A DNA stretch of 64,000 nt, taken from positions 15,251-79,250 of the forward strand of contig SVAY01000003.1 in assembly GCA_015059185.1 (NCBI GenBank), read 5' to 3'. This DNA is from Erysipelotrichaceae bacterium. GTDB taxonomy: Bacteria; Bacillota_I; Bacilli_A; RFN20; CAG-826. Below the pieces are notes generated by a model. It saw only the letters and a list, made by a program, of their open reading frames with translations. It made no database searches and was not told the DNA's origin. Each line of letters opens with the position of its first letter. Position 1 is the first letter of the stretch. Positions 36,955-41,570 of the stretch are shown here, in pieces. The translations under genes were made by a program, and so were the position numbers.

Positions 36955-37665
36955 TTATAGGTTTGGTGTTGATAGATTACCGTATTTAGAAATAGAACGT
37001 TTTATTTTCTCTTGTATCTCGTTTTCCAAAAACACTTTTAACAGTTCTGGATCCACCACTTGTCCACTTGTTTCTTTTAAATATGTAATAGTATCTTCAA
37101 TAGAAATAGCATCCTTATAGGCACGCACACTAGTCATCGCATCAAAGATATCACAGATAGTAACTATTCTAGCGCTTAAAGGAATATCTTCTCCTTTTAA
37201 TCCTTCTTGATAACCACTTCCATCATATCTTTCATGGTGATAGGTCACGACATCGTTGGTGAGACTTAGAAATTTTATGTTCTTTGTATCTTTTAACGCT
37301 TCTTCTATAATCTCGTTTCCATATTTTATATGGTTACGCATTATTTTTCGTTCCTCTTCATTTAAAGAATATCTATTGTAAATGATATTGTTAGGAATCA
37401 TTAATTTTCCAATATCGTGTAAAGCAGCTGCACAAGGAAGCATTTGAGTAAATTCTTCGTCGATTACTTCTGGATATAACTTTTGTTTATATAATTCAAG
37501 CACCAGGAGTTTAGCGTAATATGCAGTTCTTAAAATATGGCCTTTGATCCCAGGAAGAAGTTTTTCAGCATATTGAGCGATAAGAAAAATAGACTCTTTG
37601 TTTAAGTAATTAATTCGACTCACATCTTTAATGAGCGTAATTTTATCTTCTAAACTCTCAATCAT
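36955..37665 (-). CDS. Stand-alone HD-GYP domain phosphodiesterase (cyclic-di-nucleotide phosphodiesterase family)
   Basis: HHERYDGSGYQEGLKGEDIPLSARIVTICDIFDAMTSVRAYK is a textbook HD-GYP signature, and the upstream HD motif is AALHDIGK. The start is uncertain: the ATG ending at 37665 is chosen because upstream in-frame ATGs fall inside the predicted promoter. Confidence 0.7.
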   Translation of the reverse strand: MIESLEDKITLIKDVSRINYLNKESIFLIAQYAEKLLPGIKGHILRTAYYAKLLVLELYKQKLYPEVIDEEFTQMLPCAAALHDIGKLMIPNNIIYNRYSLNEEERKIMRNHIKYGNEIIEEALKDTKNIKFLSLTNDVVTYHHERYDGSGYQEGLKGEDIPLSARIVTICDIFDAMTSVRAYKDAISIEDTITYLKETSGQVVDPELLKVFLENEIQEKIKRSISKYGNLSTPNL

Positions 37666-37676
37666 TGATAGCGAAA

Positions 37677-37704
37677 TCATATATGTAACAATAAGGAATG
37701 TCAA
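37677..37704 (-). promoter_or_regulatory. Near-consensus sigma-70-type promoter for the HD-GYP gene (likely a leaderless or short-leader mRNA).
   Basis: On the minus strand TTGACA, a 16-nt spacer and TATGAT. Confidence 0.45.
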
Positions 37705-37789
37705 GTTCCTACTGTATAGATAACAATTTACTAGGTAAGTTATATCCTTAGTGGTCTTCGCTTTTCCGGTCTTACATCCACTTAAAGTC

Positions 37790-38701
37790 TTACATCTTTA
37801 ACAAAGTGGAGCTATAGCGAAGCAAATATCCGGATTTAATCCTTCTTTCATCTAATAGGTTGATGTCTACATAAAATTCTTTATATCCATCGCTCCAATT
37901 GATGAATAATATTTTGCCATATTGATAGACAAGAATTTTATCAAACGCTACTCCCTTTTGAGCCATAAATAATGATTGTAATTCATCCTTTGTCAATACT
38001 TCGTCATTTTTTGGAAATATAAAAAGAACGTTATTTGTATTCATATATTTTATATGACCTAGTTCTTCATCATTTAACACTGAATGAATTTCATCTAAAT
38101 AGCAAGTATAAAGGAAAAATGAATTATCATTTATAAGATAACGATGCTTGTTATTATAAACATATTTAGATGAATATATTTCTGGATAACTAAATAATTT
38201 GACATATAACTGTTTTGCTATATATAGATTATAATCTCTATCATTAAATGATAGCTCTATATTCTTTTTACTACGCTTTTTCCTTATTGCGTTCATTTTC
38301 AAGTTATATCTAATCTTACTCATAAAAATCACTCTCTCTTCACTAAGAGTGTGATAAAGTTCATAGAAATCAATGATATCTTTATATGGAAGTTGACTCA
38401 TAATTGCCGAGAAACTTGTAGAGGTTCTGTAATAAAACTTTAAATAAATATTTACTACATAATACAAAACTAAGATATCTGGGTTTTGATTACCTTTTTT
38501 TATATCCACTTCTTTTACAAATCTTAAATACACTAAACGAGGATTGAAATATGTGATATCTGAATAATCGATGATTTGTTTAAATGTTTGTGAAACAAAA
38601 AAGGATGTAATAAAATCCTCCATATCATATTCATCTTGATATGCTAAAGAAACAATTTCTTTAATTAAGTTATATTGATGCAGCTTATCCTTATCGTCCA
38701 T
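37790..38701 (-). CDS. DUF3791-like partner protein (303 aa) of the HTH-DUF3990 module
   Basis: The N-terminal region is similar to the 19709..20332 product (KLHQYNLIKEIVSLAYQDEYDMEDFITSFFVSQTFKQI versus DDYVEKYIETLSYLLERSISEDYSFDVIEKSIAYSTMI). It overlaps the upstream gene by 11 nt. Confidence 0.4.
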   Translation of the reverse strand: MDDKDKLHQYNLIKEIVSLAYQDEYDMEDFITSFFVSQTFKQIIDYSDITYFNPRLVYLRFVKEVDIKKGNQNPDILVLYYVVNIYLKFYYRTSTSFSAIMSQLPYKDIIDFYELYHTLSEERVIFMSKIRYNLKMNAIRKKRSKKNIELSFNDRDYNLYIAKQLYVKLFSYPEIYSSKYVYNNKHRYLINDNSFFLYTCYLDEIHSVLNDEELGHIKYMNTNNVLFIFPKNDEVLTKDELQSLFMAQKGVAFDKILVYQYGKILFINWSDGYKEFYVDINLLDERRIKSGYLLRYSSTLLKM

Positions 38702-39584: not shown

Positions 39585-39794
39585 ACTTCAATTATAACAT
39601 TTTTGTAAATATTTCCTAATTATTCCAGATTTTACTCAAATATTTTAATACATTAATAATTATATTAATATATATAAATATATATATTAATAACATTTTA
39701 TAAAATATTTCCTATGTACATCTAATCGTATTAGATATCATTTATTAAAAAGGAAAAAGAAGAATGGATTCTTGTAAAAAAATGTAGCTAATAA

Positions 39795-41435
39795 CTATCT
39801 ATATACTTCATCCTTAAATGCACTATTTTTATGTGAAAATGATAATCCAATTAACAATATCCTTTTAGAATTAATACGTAGCGCATCTGAATAGTATTTA
39901 TGTTCTTTAATTTGGTTTAAAGCTTTAGAAGCGGATTTTTCTAAATCACTTATTGAAGGTCTGTTTTTTAAGTATTTAAGTTCTAAAATAATTGAATAAT
40001 CGTTATTTGATATCGATCTAATCACTATGTCGCACCTTCCTTGGCCTTCTTCAATTTCACTGCTGACAAGAGCGTCGTCCATCAAAACAGATCCCAAGGT
40101 GACAATCATAATTTGATATGCTTTTTCAGAATTTAAATCTAAATATGAAAGCCTATTTTGAATATAAAAAGCAAGATTGGAAACAAATTCTTTAGTATTA
40201 AATGATATTAACGATTCCTTTATCTTTTTTAGAATCATAAAATTATCTTTATTCACTAATGTTTCCATGATTTCTTTGTTAAAGGCAATTTTAATTTCCT
40301 CATTCACTATCCTTACTGTATAGTAATTGCTTGGAAAATTAGGATGTATAGATAAATAACCACTAAACGCTAATAAAGAATATAGATTGATATTGTTATC
40401 AACGAAATCATAACTTATATTTTCATTGATTGTTGTATTAACATTTTCTCCATTAGTTAAAGATACTAAATCACTATTTACGTCACCACTTAATAGCTTC
40501 ACGGTCTCATGTAACAATTTATATGATCCTGTATTCGTCCAATAAGCCTTATATACAAATATATTTGATATAAAATTTAAAATTGACCAGGGATTATATA
40601 CTTCTTTATTTTGGAAAAAATATCCACCATACCACCTCTTCACTTCGTTATAATCACCATTGAAGTTTGAATATCTCAATAGTTTTTCAACCTCATCATC
40701 AGTAAAGCCGAAAAACTCATCTTTATTAGATAAGATATTATTAACCATCAAATTGTTTAAATCTGAAAAGATAGAAGAATGTGATACTTGGGTTATTCCA
40801 GTTACGATAGCTTTATATAGATAAGGGTTGCTTTTAATCGCATTACCTAAAAAGTCTTTCATAAGGTCTCTAGCATCATCAAAATAGCCATTCACATATG
40901 CGGTTTCTAAAGGTGTATCGTATTCATCAATTAAAATAATAGTCTTGACATTATTTTTCTTATATAACTTTTTAGTAAGGTAATATAAAGATTCTTTTAA
41001 TTCATTATTAGTACATTTACGATTTATGACATTATTTTCAAAATCATTTTCAGGGTTAATTAAATCACTATAAATATCAGATATCTTAAACTTCAATAAT
41101 TCAATATAATCAGCATAACTACGTCCGTTTATACCCTTTAAGTTAAGATGTATAACGTTATATTTATTTATATATTCAGCATATCTATGATCTTTATTAA
41201 TAATATTAGTGTCTTTAAATAAGGTTAATGAATCTTCATTGATATCAAAAAAATATTTACATAAAGAAAGCATTAATGATTTTCCAAATCTACGTGGACG
41301 GGTAAAGAGAAATGTCGCGGATTCAGGGGAATTAATTATATCTTCTAAAAACAATGTTTTATCCACATAATAACAATCTTTTTTTACTGTTTTGAAATCA
41401 TCAACGCCTATTGGCAAATACAAATTTGGAATCAT
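39795..41435 (-). CDS. AAA-ATPase-like (PF09820-type) N-terminal domain fused to a PD-(D/E)xK nuclease-like (PDDEXK_9/DUF1703) C-terminal domain
   Basis: The N-terminus LPIGVDDFKTVKKDCYYVDKT...TRPRRFGKSL is the hallmark of the predicted AAA-ATPase family. The C-terminus CDIVIRSISNNDYSIILELKY has the (D/E)-x-K pattern. The start is set at MIPNLYLPIG, which has an AGAGGT Shine-Dalgarno sequence 7 nt upstream. The ORF-track start at 41498 lies inside the upstream tandem repeats. Confidence 0.6.
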   Translation of the reverse strand: MIPNLYLPIGVDDFKTVKKDCYYVDKTLFLEDIINSPESATFLFTRPRRFGKSLMLSLCKYFFDINEDSLTLFKDTNIINKDHRYAEYINKYNVIHLNLKGINGRSYADYIELLKFKISDIYSDLINPENDFENNVINRKCTNNELKESLYYLTKKLYKKNNVKTIILIDEYDTPLETAYVNGYFDDARDLMKDFLGNAIKSNPYLYKAIVTGITQVSHSSIFSDLNNLMVNNILSNKDEFFGFTDDEVEKLLRYSNFNGDYNEVKRWYGGYFFQNKEVYNPWSILNFISNIFVYKAYWTNTGSYKLLHETVKLLSGDVNSDLVSLTNGENVNTTINENISYDFVDNNINLYSLLAFSGYLSIHPNFPSNYYTVRIVNEEIKIAFNKEIMETLVNKDNFMILKKIKESLISFNTKEFVSNLAFYIQNRLSYLDLNSEKAYQIMIVTLGSVLMDDALVSSEIEEGQGRCDIVIRSISNNDYSIILELKYLKNRPSISDLEKSASKALNQIKEHKYYSDALRINSKRILLIGLSFSHKNSAFKDEVYR

Positions 41436-41469
41436 ACTTAATACCTCTACAATCATAGAATAATATGCT

Positions 41470-41570
41470 TTCGTGCAAAAATCAACTTCTTCGTGCAAAA
41501 ATCAACTTATTCGTGCAAAAGTGCATTTCTTCGTGCACATTCGTGCAATTTCGTACAGTCTTGTGCAAAT
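41470..41570. repeat. Degenerate tandem-repeat array (about 20-bp units decaying to about 10 bp) carrying 6-7 copies of the core TTCGTGCA(A) on the plus strand (TGCACGAA on the minus strand). It lies immediately upstream of the AAA-ATPase-like/PD-(D/E)xK gene.
   Basis: The units TTCGTGCAAAAATCAACTTC, TTCGTGCAAAAATCAACTTA, TTCGTGCAAAAGTGCATTTC, TTCGTGCACAT, TCGTGCAATT, TCGTACAGTC and TTGTGCAAAT are read directly from the sequence. Confidence 0.7.

What the first reader, a model, noticed from the sequence alone, without database searches (positions are those of the whole stretch)
36955..41570. Accessory island: stand-alone HD-GYP phosphodiesterase, an HTH-DUF3990(ART-like)/DUF3791-like module, and an AAA-ATPase-like/PD-(D/E)xK protein behind a TGCACGAA repeat array
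Between the conserved clpB and an AKR gene lie four genes typical of defence or signalling islands. (1) A 249-aa HD-GYP enzyme with its own near-consensus promoter; a stand-alone HD-GYP without sensor domains would hydrolyse c-di-GMP or other cyclic (oligo)nucleotides. (2) and (3) A second copy of the DUF3990-like/DUF3791-like pair, with the HTH now fused to the ART-like protein rather than the partner. This domain swap between paralogous modules is a hallmark of fast-evolving TA or defence systems. (4) A PF09820-type AAA-ATPase-like plus PD-(D/E)xK nuclease protein. AT-rich spacers (39600-39790) and the repeat array suggest horizontal origin.
Basis: inference. Interest (0 to 1): 0.6.

Follow-up and report, generated by a model that had tools for sequence, protein, structure and literature searches.

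The report
Strain-variable hotspot with ART-like toxin pair
The gap between clpB and an aldo-keto reductase gene in this Erysipelotrichaceae genome is a hotspot holding three unrelated accessory units, and the only unit conserved elsewhere is a small two-gene operon that looks like an untested toxin-antitoxin or anti-phage module built on an ADP-ribosyltransferase-like enzyme.

Summary
The genes, most domain calls, the AT-rich spacer and the TTCGTGCA array are real. The "DUF3791-like" label is not supported, and two start codons were set too far upstream.

The four genes are not one system. Another strain of the same species has AKR, HD-GYP, a different 675-aa gene, then clpB. It lacks the ~3.9-kb block (~37706-41595) carrying the array, the DUF1703-type ATPase/nuclease, HTH-DUF3990 and the 303-aa partner. 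A sister species lacks HD-GYP as well.

Across five other distinct genomic contexts, only HTH-DUF3990 plus its overlapping ~300-aa partner stay together. HD-GYP and DUF1703 genes are never beside them. In at least two contexts, genes within 8 kb match known or candidate defence models (AbiE, AbiL-like, HEC-01A-like ATPases).

The pair is a distant variant of the unvalidated PADLOC candidate PDC-M42. Protein A is an ART fold with invariant His, Tyr and Gln, nearest in structure to RES toxins. The N-domain of protein B is homologous to PDC-M42B. All loci share AAAATGTTA(T/G)AAT exactly 6 nt before the ATG, which implies a leaderless, probably self-repressed transcript.

The most likely function is a TA-like or abortive-infection module. 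This is inferred, not shown. The array remains unexplained.

The parts
36826..36854 (-). CIRCE-like inverted repeat (TTAGCACTC-N9-GAGTGCCAA) overlapping the clpB promoter. This is context and not part of the island.
   Evidence: Flagged as a 13-bp stem. The clpB promoter TTGACA-17-CATACT lies at 36841-36813. The match to the CIRCE consensus is my reading of the sequence.
36918..36939 (-). Terminator-like hairpin plus T-run just after the HD-GYP stop codon.
36955..37665 (-). Stand-alone HD-GYP-family phosphodiesterase of 236 aa (motif reads GYQ). It is an independent transcription unit, conserved in the species at this site but absent from sister species.
   Evidence: Pfam HD_5 1.4e-29. PDB sequence matches: PmGH 4mcw 1.8e-34, PA4781 4r8z 1.3e-27, V-cGAP3 5z7c 3.7e-26. 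Present at 87% aa identity in strain L170/L171. Absent from L167 and L168. The 236-aa start was chosen by gene callers.
37676..37704 (-). HD-GYP promoter TTGACA-17-TATGAT. The -10 ends 10 nt before the ATG and there is no Shine-Dalgarno sequence.
   Evidence: The promoter is conserved in L170.
37706..41595 (.). Strain-specific ~3.9-kb block (boundaries uncertain by ~30 bp), absent from the conspecific strain L170/L171. It contains the three genes below and the repeat array.
   Evidence: blastn breakpoints at window 41596 and 37705. Junction alignment.
37790..38701 (-). Partner protein B (303 aa). It has an all-alpha N-domain (~10-134) homologous to PADLOC PDC-M42B, a basic disordered linker, and a C-terminal alpha/beta domain (~154-300) with no confident fold match.
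38691..39584 (-). Protein A (297 aa). It has an N-terminal XRE-type HTH (~1-70) fused to a DUF3990 ADP-ribosyltransferase-fold domain (~77-247) and a C-terminal helix. It overlaps the partner gene by 11 nt.
39591..39618 (-). Proximal promoter/operator. AAAATGTTATAAT (extended -10, TGnTATAAT) ends exactly 6 nt before the ATG with no SD, implying a leaderless mRNA. It is part of a 25-nt direct repeat.
   Evidence: The same motif sits at the same offset in all 11 fetched loci that carry a homolog (10 outside the window's own strain). It occurs once in the 167 other loci fetched at that point.
39690..39714 (-). Distal copy of the 25-nt repeat (88% identical), 96 nt upstream of the proximal copy. 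It is a probable second operator. Similar upstream copies are visible in L002, L006 and L007.
   Evidence: Family D6. Upstream sequences.
39795..41435 (-). DUF1703-type protein (546 aa from ATG 41435; 553 aa if from 41456). [quoted passage not shown]
   Evidence: Pfam PF09820 8e-41 and PF08011 2.2e-14. Motifs read from the translation. Family described in PMC6387759. Never adjacent to the DUF3990 pair elsewhere.
41470..41567 (+). Direct-repeat array with core TTCGTGCA. There are 3.4 copies of a 20-nt unit, then 10-nt units (5 exact and 2 degenerate cores). It lies between the divergent DUF1703 and AKR genes, and the proximal copy supplies a -35-like hexamer for the DUF1703 gene.
   Evidence: It lies inside the strain-specific block and is identical in a second sample. 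No inverted copy exists at the other block end.
20332..20979 (-). Module 1 protein A. A 215-aa DUF3990 with no HTH, a paralogue of protein A (23% identity), carrying the same H, Y and Q residues.
   Evidence: Pfam DUF3990 3.8e-37. PADLOC PDC-M42A 2.6e-36 over the full length. Pairwise alignment.
19709..20332 (-). Module 1 protein B (207 aa). Its helical N-domain shares the W/Y..Y.R...P.......Y..(L/Y)H motif with the 303-aa partner and with PDC-M42B. It has a C-terminal HTH_26.
   Evidence: HTH_26 1.6e-6. (local match, E 3e-6). (hhalign E 1.4e-3, weak).
20980..20992 (-). Module 1 promoter AAAATGATACAAT, again exactly 6 nt before the ATG.

Best explanation
The clpB-AKR gap is a strain-variable hotspot that holds three independent accessory units, not one system.

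Unit 1 is a stand-alone HD-GYP-family phosphodiesterase with its own promoter and terminator. It is present in this species but absent from its closest relatives.

Unit 2 is a DUF1703-type AAA-like ATPase/PD-(D/E)xK nuclease gene preceded by a TTCGTGCA direct-repeat array.

Unit 3 is the only co-conserved unit. It is a translationally coupled two-gene operon made of protein A (XRE HTH fused to a DUF3990 ADP-ribosyltransferase-fold domain) and protein B (PDC-M42B-like helical domain plus an extra alpha/beta domain).

The proposed mechanism for unit 3 is inferred. A and B form a complex. The HTH tethers that complex to the conserved operator overlapping the extended -10 of a leaderless promoter, so the operon represses itself. 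The helical N-domain of B keeps the ART-fold enzyme inactive. Loss or remodelling of B, for example through phage infection or stress possibly sensed by B's C-terminal domain, frees A. A then uses NAD+ to ADP-ribosylate a target or to deplete NAD+, arresting growth. This is type II toxin-antitoxin or abortive-infection logic, analogous to Xre-RES systems.

Shown here: gene content, domain and fold assignments, strain variability, pair co-conservation, the conserved cis-element and the defence-type neighbourhoods.
Inferred: complex formation, repression, toxicity, NAD+ chemistry and the trigger.
For: HOTSPOT AND INDEPENDENCE
- Strain L170/L171 (ClpB ~99-100%; flanks 94.8-96.7% nt) has AKR, HD-GYP, a 675-aa gene, then clpB. 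It lacks window ~37706-41595.
- L167 (ClpB 95%) has no HD-GYP and carries AbiEi/AbiEii on the other side of clpB.
- L168 (ClpB 85%) has a 667-aa gene at the site.

PAIR CO-CONSERVATION
- In loci L002, L003/L004/L009/L010, L006, L007/L008 and L011, the HTH-DUF3990 gene (42-59% identity) is always followed by a ~294-305-aa gene without Pfam hits. The two overlap by 8-20 nt, or are 4 nt apart in L011. HD-GYP and PF09820 neighbours are never present.

RELATION TO PDC-M42
- A matches PDC-M42A, M13 and M10 models. Module 1 A matches PDC-M42A at 2.6e-36.
- B's N-domain is linked to PDC-M42B through remote homologs and by hhalign at 98.8%.

ENZYME-LIKE NATURE OF A
- H80-G-S, G-F-Y108-L-S...Y119 and Q227-Y-V are invariant in 23 sequences. 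They are shared with the 23%-identical paralogue.
- There is a weak PARP profile hit.
- The nearest solved folds for the ART part are the RES toxins of Xre-RES TA systems and a diphtheria-toxin homolog.
- DUF3990 occurs as the C-terminal toxin domain of an Rhs effector with a downstream immunity gene (PMC4524185).

REGULATION
- AAAATGTTA(T/G)AAT lies exactly 6 nt before the ATG in all 11 loci fetched via protein A or its homologs and once in the 167 other loci fetched at that point.
- The same layout is found in module 1. A second upstream copy is present (family D6).
- The HTH moves between A and B in the two modules. This makes sense if A and B act on DNA as a complex.

NEIGHBOURHOODS
- AbiEi/AbiEii, AbiL-like and HEC-01A-like ATPases, a PrimPol-helicase, HipA-like PDC-M03A, NERD, Fic and HNH lie within 8 kb in 4 of 5 distinct contexts.
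Against: - No experiment exists for any DUF3990 pair. PDC-M42 is only an unpublished candidate (PMC11811056).
- The catalytic Glu expected in H-Y-E ARTs is a Gln. The enzyme may be a weak mono-ART, an NADase, or not catalytic at all.
- PADLOC's PDC-M42B model does not hit either partner protein directly.
- A toxin that carries the operon's own HTH is unusual for type II TA systems.
- One context (L007) is purely housekeeping.
- The C-domain of B has no recognisable fold, so the 'sensor' role is a guess.
- No phage or plasmid copy was found. This neither helps nor hurts the reading.
- The array and the DUF1703 gene are left without a mechanism.
Confidence: 0.55

Rival explanations
1. All four genes form one functional defence or signalling island, with the HD-GYP enzyme degrading a cyclic nucleotide signal linked to the DUF3990 module and the ATPase/nuclease.
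For: The four genes are adjacent and co-oriented. HD-GYP enzymes include cGAMP-specific phosphodiesterases, with V-cGAP3 matching at 3.7e-26. The three block genes have low GC.
Against: HD-GYP stays in the strain that lacks the other three genes. It has its own promoter and terminator. None of five other contexts of the pair has an HD-GYP or PF09820 gene. No GGDEF motif was found in the window ORFs; CD-NTase genes were not searched for.
Confidence: 0.04
2. Protein A is a plain transcription factor. Its DUF3990 domain is a non-catalytic NAD+/ADP-ribose or other ligand-sensing domain, and B is a co-regulator. The module regulates genes rather than poisoning the cell.
For: The HTH is fused to A. 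The operator-like repeats are conserved. The catalytic Glu is replaced by Gln. One context is housekeeping.
Against: The only conserved target-like site is the module's own promoter. The paralogous module and PDC-M42A proteins lack any HTH on the DUF3990 protein. DUF3990 is used as an Rhs toxin tip. His and Tyr of the NAD+ pocket are invariant. Neighbourhoods are TA and defence rich.
Confidence: 0.17
3. The roles are reversed. B, through its unassigned C-terminal alpha/beta domain (faint resemblance to restriction-endonuclease-like folds), is the effector. HTH-DUF3990 is the antitoxin and repressor.
Confidence: 0.12
4. The TTCGTGCA array is an iteron-like binding platform for the adjacent DUF1703 ATPase/nuclease (origin-like or self-recognition site), rather than ordinary promoter-proximal regulator sites or a slipped duplication of the -35 region.
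For: There are seven phased direct repeats at 10 and 20 nt. They lie immediately upstream of an AAA-like ATPase gene, next to an AT-rich stretch, and inside the strain-specific block.
Against: Six DUF1703 homologs (32-38% identity) show no such arrays upstream. A metagenome pattern scan found only unrelated satellites, and none was next to a homolog. The motif does not recur in the 64-kb window. The proximal copy fits a simple -35 role.
Confidence: 0.07

Closest known systems
PADLOC candidate system PDC-M42 (A = DUF3990 protein, B = ~138-aa helical protein). It is unpublished and unvalidated.
   Same: It is a two-gene layout of a DUF3990 ART-fold protein followed by a helical partner. Module 1 A matches PDC-M42A at 2.6e-36 and module 2 A at 4.6e-11. 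The N-domain of B is homologous to PDC-M42B-like proteins (hhalign 98.8%).
   Different: Module 2 A carries an N-terminal XRE HTH. B is twice as long, with an extra ~150-aa alpha/beta domain. The PDC-M42B model itself does not hit either window partner, so PADLOC would not call the system. The subfamily is small: 26 clusters at 90% identity for A and 44 representatives at 50% for B.
Xre-RES toxin-antitoxin systems (Res/Xre, ParST, MbcTA, NatRT)
   Different: In Xre-RES the HTH is on the antitoxin, which also carries the neutralising domain. Here the HTH is fused to the ART-fold protein (module 2) or to the C-terminus of the partner (module 1). The signature residues are H-Y-Q and PARP-like, not R-E-S. 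No sequence-level membership was found.
PARP / diphtheria-toxin (H-Y-E) clade of ADP-ribosyltransferases
   Different: The position I align with the catalytic Glu is an invariant Gln (Q227), and that alignment is an inference. A DUF3990-specific helical insert carries the invariant IADSxNF motif. The Pfam PARP hit is below the gathering threshold.
HD-GYP phosphodiesterases (PmGH, PA4781, V-cGAP3)
   Same: The HD-GYP catalytic domain is full length, with HD, H, HH and D metal ligands.
   Different: There is no receiver, GAF or other sensor domain. The motif reads GYQ, and GYR in the sister strain. The substrate is unknown.
DUF1703 family (PF09820 AAA-ATPase_like + PF08011 PDDEXK_9)
   Same: The architecture is the same and the Walker A/B and D...ExK motifs are intact. 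The family is widespread, multi-copy and of unknown function (PMC6387759).
   Different: A phased octamer array lies directly upstream. It was not seen upstream of six homologs.

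Membership tests
HD-GYP phosphodiesterase (Pfam HD_5 / HD) | HD-superfamily domain of the HD_5 type scoring above the curated threshold | tested here: met
   HD_5 103.4 bits against a cut-off of 27.2. PmGH 4mcw matches at 1.8e-34.
HD-GYP phosphodiesterase (Pfam HD_5 / HD) | Conserved metal ligands (H...HD...H...HH...D) and the HHExxDGxGYP motif | tested here: inconclusive
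   HD (ALHDIGK), NH, YHHERYDGSGY and CDIFDAM are present in the alignment to 4mcw. The final Pro is Gln here and Arg in strain L170.
HD-GYP phosphodiesterase (Pfam HD_5 / HD) | Hydrolysis of c-di-GMP or another cyclic dinucleotide | not testable with these tools
   This needs an enzyme assay. No GGDEF motif was found among the window ORFs, but the rest of the genome was not seen.
DUF3990 / ADP-ribosyltransferase clan | Pfam PF13151 hit above the gathering score | tested here: met
   70.8 bits against 32.2 for the 297-aa protein. 127.8 bits for the module 1 protein.
DUF3990 / ADP-ribosyltransferase clan | ART fold | tested here: met
DUF3990 / ADP-ribosyltransferase clan | Catalytic H-Y-E (or R-S-E) triad | tested here: not met
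   H80 and Y108 are invariant. The third position, by my alignment, is an invariant Gln227. E233 is invariant in this subfamily but is Gln in module 1.
PADLOC PDC-M42 candidate system | Gene A matches the PDC-M42A model | tested here: met
   4.6e-11 for module 2 (best hit PDC-M13B at 6e-15) and 2.6e-36 for module 1.
PADLOC PDC-M42 candidate system | The adjacent gene B matches the PDC-M42B model | tested here: not met
   There are no PADLOC hits for either partner. Homology is detectable only profile-to-profile, through intermediates.
PADLOC PDC-M42 candidate system | Anti-phage activity | not testable with these tools
   PDC systems are unpublished candidates (PMC11811056). No paper in the searched library mentions PDC-M42.
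DUF3791 (Pfam PF12668) partner protein | Pfam DUF3791 profile match | tested here: not met
   No hit was found for the 303-aa protein, for its two domains at E<=10, for the module 1 partner N-domain, or for 10 remote homologs.
Type II toxin-antitoxin module | Two small adjacent, co-oriented, overlapping genes conserved as a pair in varying contexts | tested here: met
   There is an 11-nt overlap here. Elsewhere the overlap is 8-20 nt, or a 4-nt gap. Six distinct contexts were seen, including the window.
Type II toxin-antitoxin module | Autoregulation through a DNA-binding domain at the operon's own promoter | tested here: inconclusive
   An HTH is present and a positionally invariant promoter motif with an upstream repeat is conserved. 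Binding was not shown.
Type II toxin-antitoxin module | Toxicity of one protein neutralised by the other | not testable with these tools
   This needs expression experiments.
DUF1703 (PF09820 + PF08011) | Both domains above threshold in N-to-C order, with Walker A/B and the PD-(D/E)xK motif | tested here: met
   140.5 and 53.7 bits. GKS, LIDEYD and CD...ELK were read from the translation.
Mobile genomic island | Present or absent between close strains | tested here: met
Mobile genomic island | Integrase or transposase, tRNA target, or flanking direct or inverted repeats | tested here: not met
   The block holds only the three genes. No tRNA lies in 30000-46000. No terminal repeats were found. 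There are no phage, plasmid or viral-contig relatives of A.

The most novel reading that the evidence does not exclude
The HTH-DUF3990 gene and its 300-aa partner form a previously uncharacterised, self-repressing abortive-infection or TA system. In it, a PARP-like H-Y-Q enzyme carries the operon's own repressor domain, is made from a leaderless mRNA, and is restrained by a two-domain partner whose novel C-terminal domain senses the trigger. Confirming this would give the first function for DUF3990 and for the PDC-M42/M13/M10 candidates. A lower-probability add-on (about 0.05-0.1) is that the TTCGTGCA array is a recognition platform for the DUF1703 ATPase/nuclease, which would give a first handle on that large orphan family.
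Probability: 0.3. Interest if true: 0.6.

Novelty: new variant of a known kind. Interest (0 to 1): 0.4.

Why it matters
DUF3990 proteins are common in Firmicutes and Bacteroidota genomes, and they also tip some Rhs toxins, yet no function has been shown for them.

This locus defines a compact subfamily with clear handles for experiment. These are the invariant H, Y and Q residues, a portable HTH, a positionally fixed leaderless promoter with operator-like repeats, and natural strains with and without the module. That makes toxicity, NAD+ chemistry, autoregulation and phage-defence tests straightforward.

The work also shows that apparent 'defence islands' read from a single genome can be accidental neighbours in an insertion hotspot. 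Only the pair is a unit.

The HD-GYP and DUF1703 genes are ordinary members of known families.

Tried and rejected
- DUF3791 assignment of the partner. No Pfam signal at any threshold. Rejected.
- Array as a regulon motif or general DUF1703 feature. The motif does not recur in the window. The metagenome scan for three phased copies returned mostly unrelated, GC-richer tandem repeats, and none was next to a homolog of the four proteins. Six DUF1703 homologs on plasmids and chromids have no upstream arrays. No conclusion on function.
- Array as a transposon end. There are no inverted copies at the other block boundary and no transposase. Rejected.
- Phage or plasmid origin of the pair. No tblastn hit in INPHARED phages or PLSDB plasmids, and none in IMG/VR by pattern search.
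- RNA elements. Rfam found nothing relevant in 34000-43000.
- Codon-usage evidence for transfer. Not significant, with only overall GC lower.
- HD-GYP orthologs in species-representative genomes. None is closer than 42% identity. This method needs shared exact peptide words, so moderately diverged orthologs could be missed.
- Sequence search of PDB for DUF3990 and DUF1703. Only HTH hits, or none.

Full report
WHAT IS IN THE SEQUENCE

The window comes from an uncultured Erysipelotrichaceae bacterium. The 297-aa protein is 100% identical to an NCBI MAG protein of that name, on a 117-kb contig.

Between clpB (34649-36766, minus strand) and an aldo-keto reductase gene (41618-42433, plus strand) lie four minus-strand ORFs at the coordinates given.
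- HD_5/HD for the first ORF (1.4e-29).
- DUF3990 (1.3e-19), with weak HTH_3 and PARP hits, for the 297-aa ORF.
- AAA-ATPase_like PF09820 (8e-41) plus PDDEXK_9 PF08011 (2.2e-14) for the last ORF.

The 303-aa ORF has no hit in Pfam, NCBIfam, PADLOC or PHROGs.

The repeat array is real and non-random:
- The core TTCGTGCA occurs five times exactly, against 1.09 expected. None of 100 shuffles reached five.
- Two degenerate copies follow. Start-to-start spacing is 20, 20, 20, 10, 10, 10 nt over 41470-41567.

The AT-rich spacer at about 39585-39794 has GC near 0.21.

Two start codons need correcting:
- The TTG at 37704 listed as the HD-GYP start is the first base of a TTGACA-17-TATGAT promoter. The gene starts at ATG 37665, giving 236 aa, as gene callers chose in two assemblies.
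- The ATPase/nuclease ORF most probably starts at ATG 41435 (MIPNLYLPIG, preceded by GAGG), or at 41456 as called in public assemblies. The array is therefore entirely intergenic.

ARE THE FOUR GENES ONE ISLAND?

I used ClpB as an anchor and fetched the same locus from relatives.

A conspecific strain (L170/L171) has ClpB ~99-100% identical and flanking DNA 94.8-96.7% identical. Its gene order is GNAT, AKR, HD-GYP (232 aa), a 675-aa gene with no Pfam hit, then clpB.
- blastn puts the breakpoints at window 41596 and 37705. The ~3.9 kb carrying the array, the ATPase/nuclease, HTH-DUF3990 and the 303-aa gene is replaced there by about 53 bp.
- That strain has its own 2.3-kb insertion between HD-GYP and clpB. 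The insertion is flanked by a duplicated 64 bp that corresponds to window 36858-36921.

More distant relatives differ again:
- A sister species (L167, ClpB 95%) has only a 106-aa ORF between AKR and clpB. It has no HD-GYP, and it carries a complete AbiEi/AbiEii pair on the other side of clpB.
- A more distant relative (L168, ClpB 85%) has a 667-aa gene at the site. It also lacks the window's other DUF3990 module between its NUDIX gene and its 210-aa gene.

The gap is therefore a hotspot of gene turnover.

HD-GYP is present in both strains examined here at this site. It is clearly more diverged than its flanks: 82.7% nt and 87% aa identity, with GYQ against GYR. It is absent from the sister species. 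No relative closer than 42% identity was found among 185,579 species-representative genomes.

Composition adds little. The three block genes have GC 0.263-0.279 (z -1.5 to -1.9). HD-GYP is average. GC3 and synonymous codon usage are unremarkable. No integrase, transposase, tRNA or terminal repeats accompany the block.

WHAT IS CO-CONSERVED

The HTH-DUF3990 protein has 26 cluster-level relatives at 42-59% identity, almost all from metagenomes. I looked at their contigs and found five other distinct contexts: L002, L003/L004/L009/L010, L006, L007/L008 and L011.
- In every context the gene is immediately followed by a 294-305-aa gene with no Pfam hit. The two overlap by 8-20 nt, or are 4 nt apart. 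In the window the overlap is 11 nt.
- None of these contexts has an HD-GYP or PF09820 gene nearby.

The neighbours differ between contexts:
- HipB/HipA.
- NERD.
- AbiEi/AbiEii, plus an AbiL-like ATPase.
- A HEC-01A-like ATPase, a PrimPol-helicase and a HipA-like PDC-M03A protein.
- Fic and HNH.
- Plain housekeeping genes in one case.

The functional unit is therefore the two-gene operon. HD-GYP and the ATPase/nuclease are independent neighbours.

THE PAIR: PROTEIN A

Residues invariant in 23 family members are H80 (LFHGS), G-F-Y108-L-S, Y119, I-A-D195-S-x-N-F, Q227-x-V and E233. H, Y and Q are also conserved in the 23%-identical paralogue at 20332-20979.

The first two motifs resemble the PARP/diphtheria-toxin NAD+ pocket, consistent with the sub-threshold Pfam PARP hit. 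By my reading, Q227 sits where H-Y-E enzymes have the catalytic Glu. That placement is an inference.

Two published statements are relevant. Pfam places DUF3990 in the ART clan (PMC7955679). DUF3990 also forms the C-terminal toxin domain of a Serratia Rhs effector, with a predicted immunity gene downstream (PMC4524185). No paper in the searched library reports a biochemical function.

THE PAIR: PROTEIN B

The 303-aa protein belongs to a very small family. A full HMMER scan of 1.84 billion representatives found only 44 hits at E<=1e-3.

Its AF2 model (pLDDT 80.7, pTM 0.71) has three parts:
- An all-alpha N-domain (~1-135).
- A basic disordered linker.
- An alpha/beta C-domain (~154-300).

The weakest hits of the HMMER scan are ~140-150-aa proteins that align only to the N-domain. 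Three of them match PADLOC's PDC-M42B model, two at about 1e-14. A profile-profile comparison gives 98.8% probability and E 1.3e-16 over 125 columns.

DUF3990 proteins match PDC-M42A, PDC-M13 and PDC-M10 models. PDC systems are unpublished PADLOC candidates, not validated defences (PMC11811056).

None of the partners or their remote relatives hits Pfam DUF3791, so that label is not supported.

The module 1 partner (207 aa) shares only a short motif with these N-domains. It ends in an HTH_26 domain.

The conserved core is therefore DUF3990 plus a helical partner domain. The HTH sits on either protein, and the alpha/beta domain is an optional extra.

A CONSERVED CIS-ELEMENT

Upstream of all 11 fetched HTH-DUF3990 genes, AAAATGTTA(T/G)AAT ends exactly 6 nt before the ATG. 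Ten of those loci are from outside the window's own strain. No Shine-Dalgarno sequence lies between the motif and the ATG.
- It contains an extended -10 (TGnTATAAT). Transcription should therefore start at or next to the start codon, giving a leaderless mRNA.
- A second, similar copy lies ~96 nt upstream in the window: a 25-nt repeat, 88% identical (family D6). Comparable upstream copies are visible in L002, L006 and L007.
- Module 1, whose proteins are barely alignable with module 2, has AAAATGATACAAT at the same 6-nt offset.

DNA conserved this much more strongly than the proteins it precedes points to a functional promoter-operator. The obvious binder is the module's own HTH.

MOST LIKELY MECHANISM (INFERRED)

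A and B are made in fixed ratio from a coupled, leaderless transcript and form a complex. The HTH holds the complex on the operator and represses the operon, and the N-domain of B blocks the ART-fold enzyme. When B is lost or altered, A is released. A then uses NAD+ to modify a target or to deplete NAD+, stopping growth. This is the logic of type II TA and abortive-infection systems, and of Xre-RES systems in particular.

Four observations favour A as the effector:
- The core conserved across PDC-M42, module 1 and module 2 is A plus the helical domain.
- The NAD+-pocket residues of A are invariant.
- DUF3990 is used as an Rhs toxin.
- The neighbourhoods are rich in TA and defence genes.

Five observations count against, or remain unknown:
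- The Glu-to-Gln replacement.
- The unusual HTH-on-toxin arrangement.
- One housekeeping context.
- The complete lack of experiments.

I put this model at about 0.5-0.55. The main rivals are a non-toxic ligand-sensing regulator (~0.17) and reversed roles with B as the effector (~0.12).

THE OTHER TWO UNITS

HD-GYP is a bona fide family member. Its closest solved relatives are PmGH (1.8e-34), PA4781 and the cGAMP-specific V-cGAP3.
- All metal ligands are present, but the motif reads GYQ, or GYR in the other strain.
- It has no sensor domain.
- It has its own promoter and terminator.
- Its substrate cannot be inferred here. No GGDEF motif occurs among the window ORFs.

The ATPase/nuclease belongs to the DUF1703 family, which is widespread, multi-copy and of unknown function (PMC6387759). 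It has 60 matching plasmid or chromid records at 32-38% identity. Its Walker A/B and D...ELK motifs are intact.

The array is part of the strain-specific block and is identical in a second sample.
- Its proximal copy supplies a -35-like hexamer (TTTGCA-16-TATGAT) for the DUF1703 gene.
- It is not found upstream of six homologs.
- It does not recur in the window.
- A metagenome pattern scan returned only unrelated tandem repeats.

The most economical reading is a set of phased binding sites for an unidentified regulator, or a slipped duplication of the promoter-upstream region. An iteron-like role for the DUF1703 protein is not excluded, but nothing supports it.

VERDICT

The only unit of wider interest is the HTH-DUF3990/partner operon. 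It is a new architectural variant of an already catalogued but untested candidate (PDC-M42-like ART-fold pair), with a notably conserved leaderless promoter-operator. The HD-GYP and DUF1703 genes are ordinary members of known families. Interest is moderate (0.4).

Noticed in passing
window 36826-36854: A CIRCE-like inverted repeat (TTAGCACTC-N9-GAGTGCCAA on the minus strand) overlaps the -35 of the clpB promoter. This suggests HrcA control of clpB. The terminator scan reported it as a hairpin.
   Followed up: partly
window 34649-36766: ClpB is only 705 aa. The first Walker A motif sits near residue 62, so the usual N-terminal Clp_N domain appears to be missing, as in Mollicutes-type ClpB. Relatives are 699-717 aa.
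   Followed up: no
L170 7553-9847 (equivalent to window 36858-36921): The conspecific strain carries a 675-aa gene with no Pfam or PADLOC hit between HD-GYP and clpB. The gene is flanked by a duplicated 64 bp. A 667-aa gene with no hit sits beside clpB in L168, on the opposite strand.
   Followed up: partly
L167 12259-13795: The sister species has a complete AbiEi/AbiEii system immediately downstream of clpB (2.2e-44 and 7.4e-77). Both sides of clpB therefore collect defence genes in this lineage.
   Followed up: yes
window 19709-20992: The first DUF3990 module (A 215 aa, B 207 aa with a C-terminal HTH_26) is also accessory. In L168, NUDIX is followed directly by the 210-aa gene. It shares the '-10 six nt before ATG' layout.
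   Followed up: partly
window 39462-39479 and 39652-39669: A perfect 18-nt inverted repeat (ATTAATATAATTATTAAT) brackets the promoter and start codon of the HTH-DUF3990 gene. One arm lies inside the coding region and the other in the AT-rich spacer (I5). It could be an additional operator or a chance match in AT-rich DNA.
   Followed up: no
window 37665-37704: The HD-GYP -10 (TATGAT) ends only 10 nt before the ATG and no Shine-Dalgarno sequence is present, so this transcript may also be nearly leaderless. clpB, by contrast, has a normal AGGAGG leader.
   Followed up: no
window 10799-17551: A 2250-aa ORF lies on the minus strand. It was not examined.
   Followed up: no
L174, L175, L176 (plasmid homologs of the DUF1703 gene): Distant DUF1703 homologs sit next to a type I restriction R subunit, next to Fic plus HNH genes, and near a RelB/DinJ antitoxin gene, respectively. 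This hints at defence or TA neighbourhoods for that family too.
   Followed up: no
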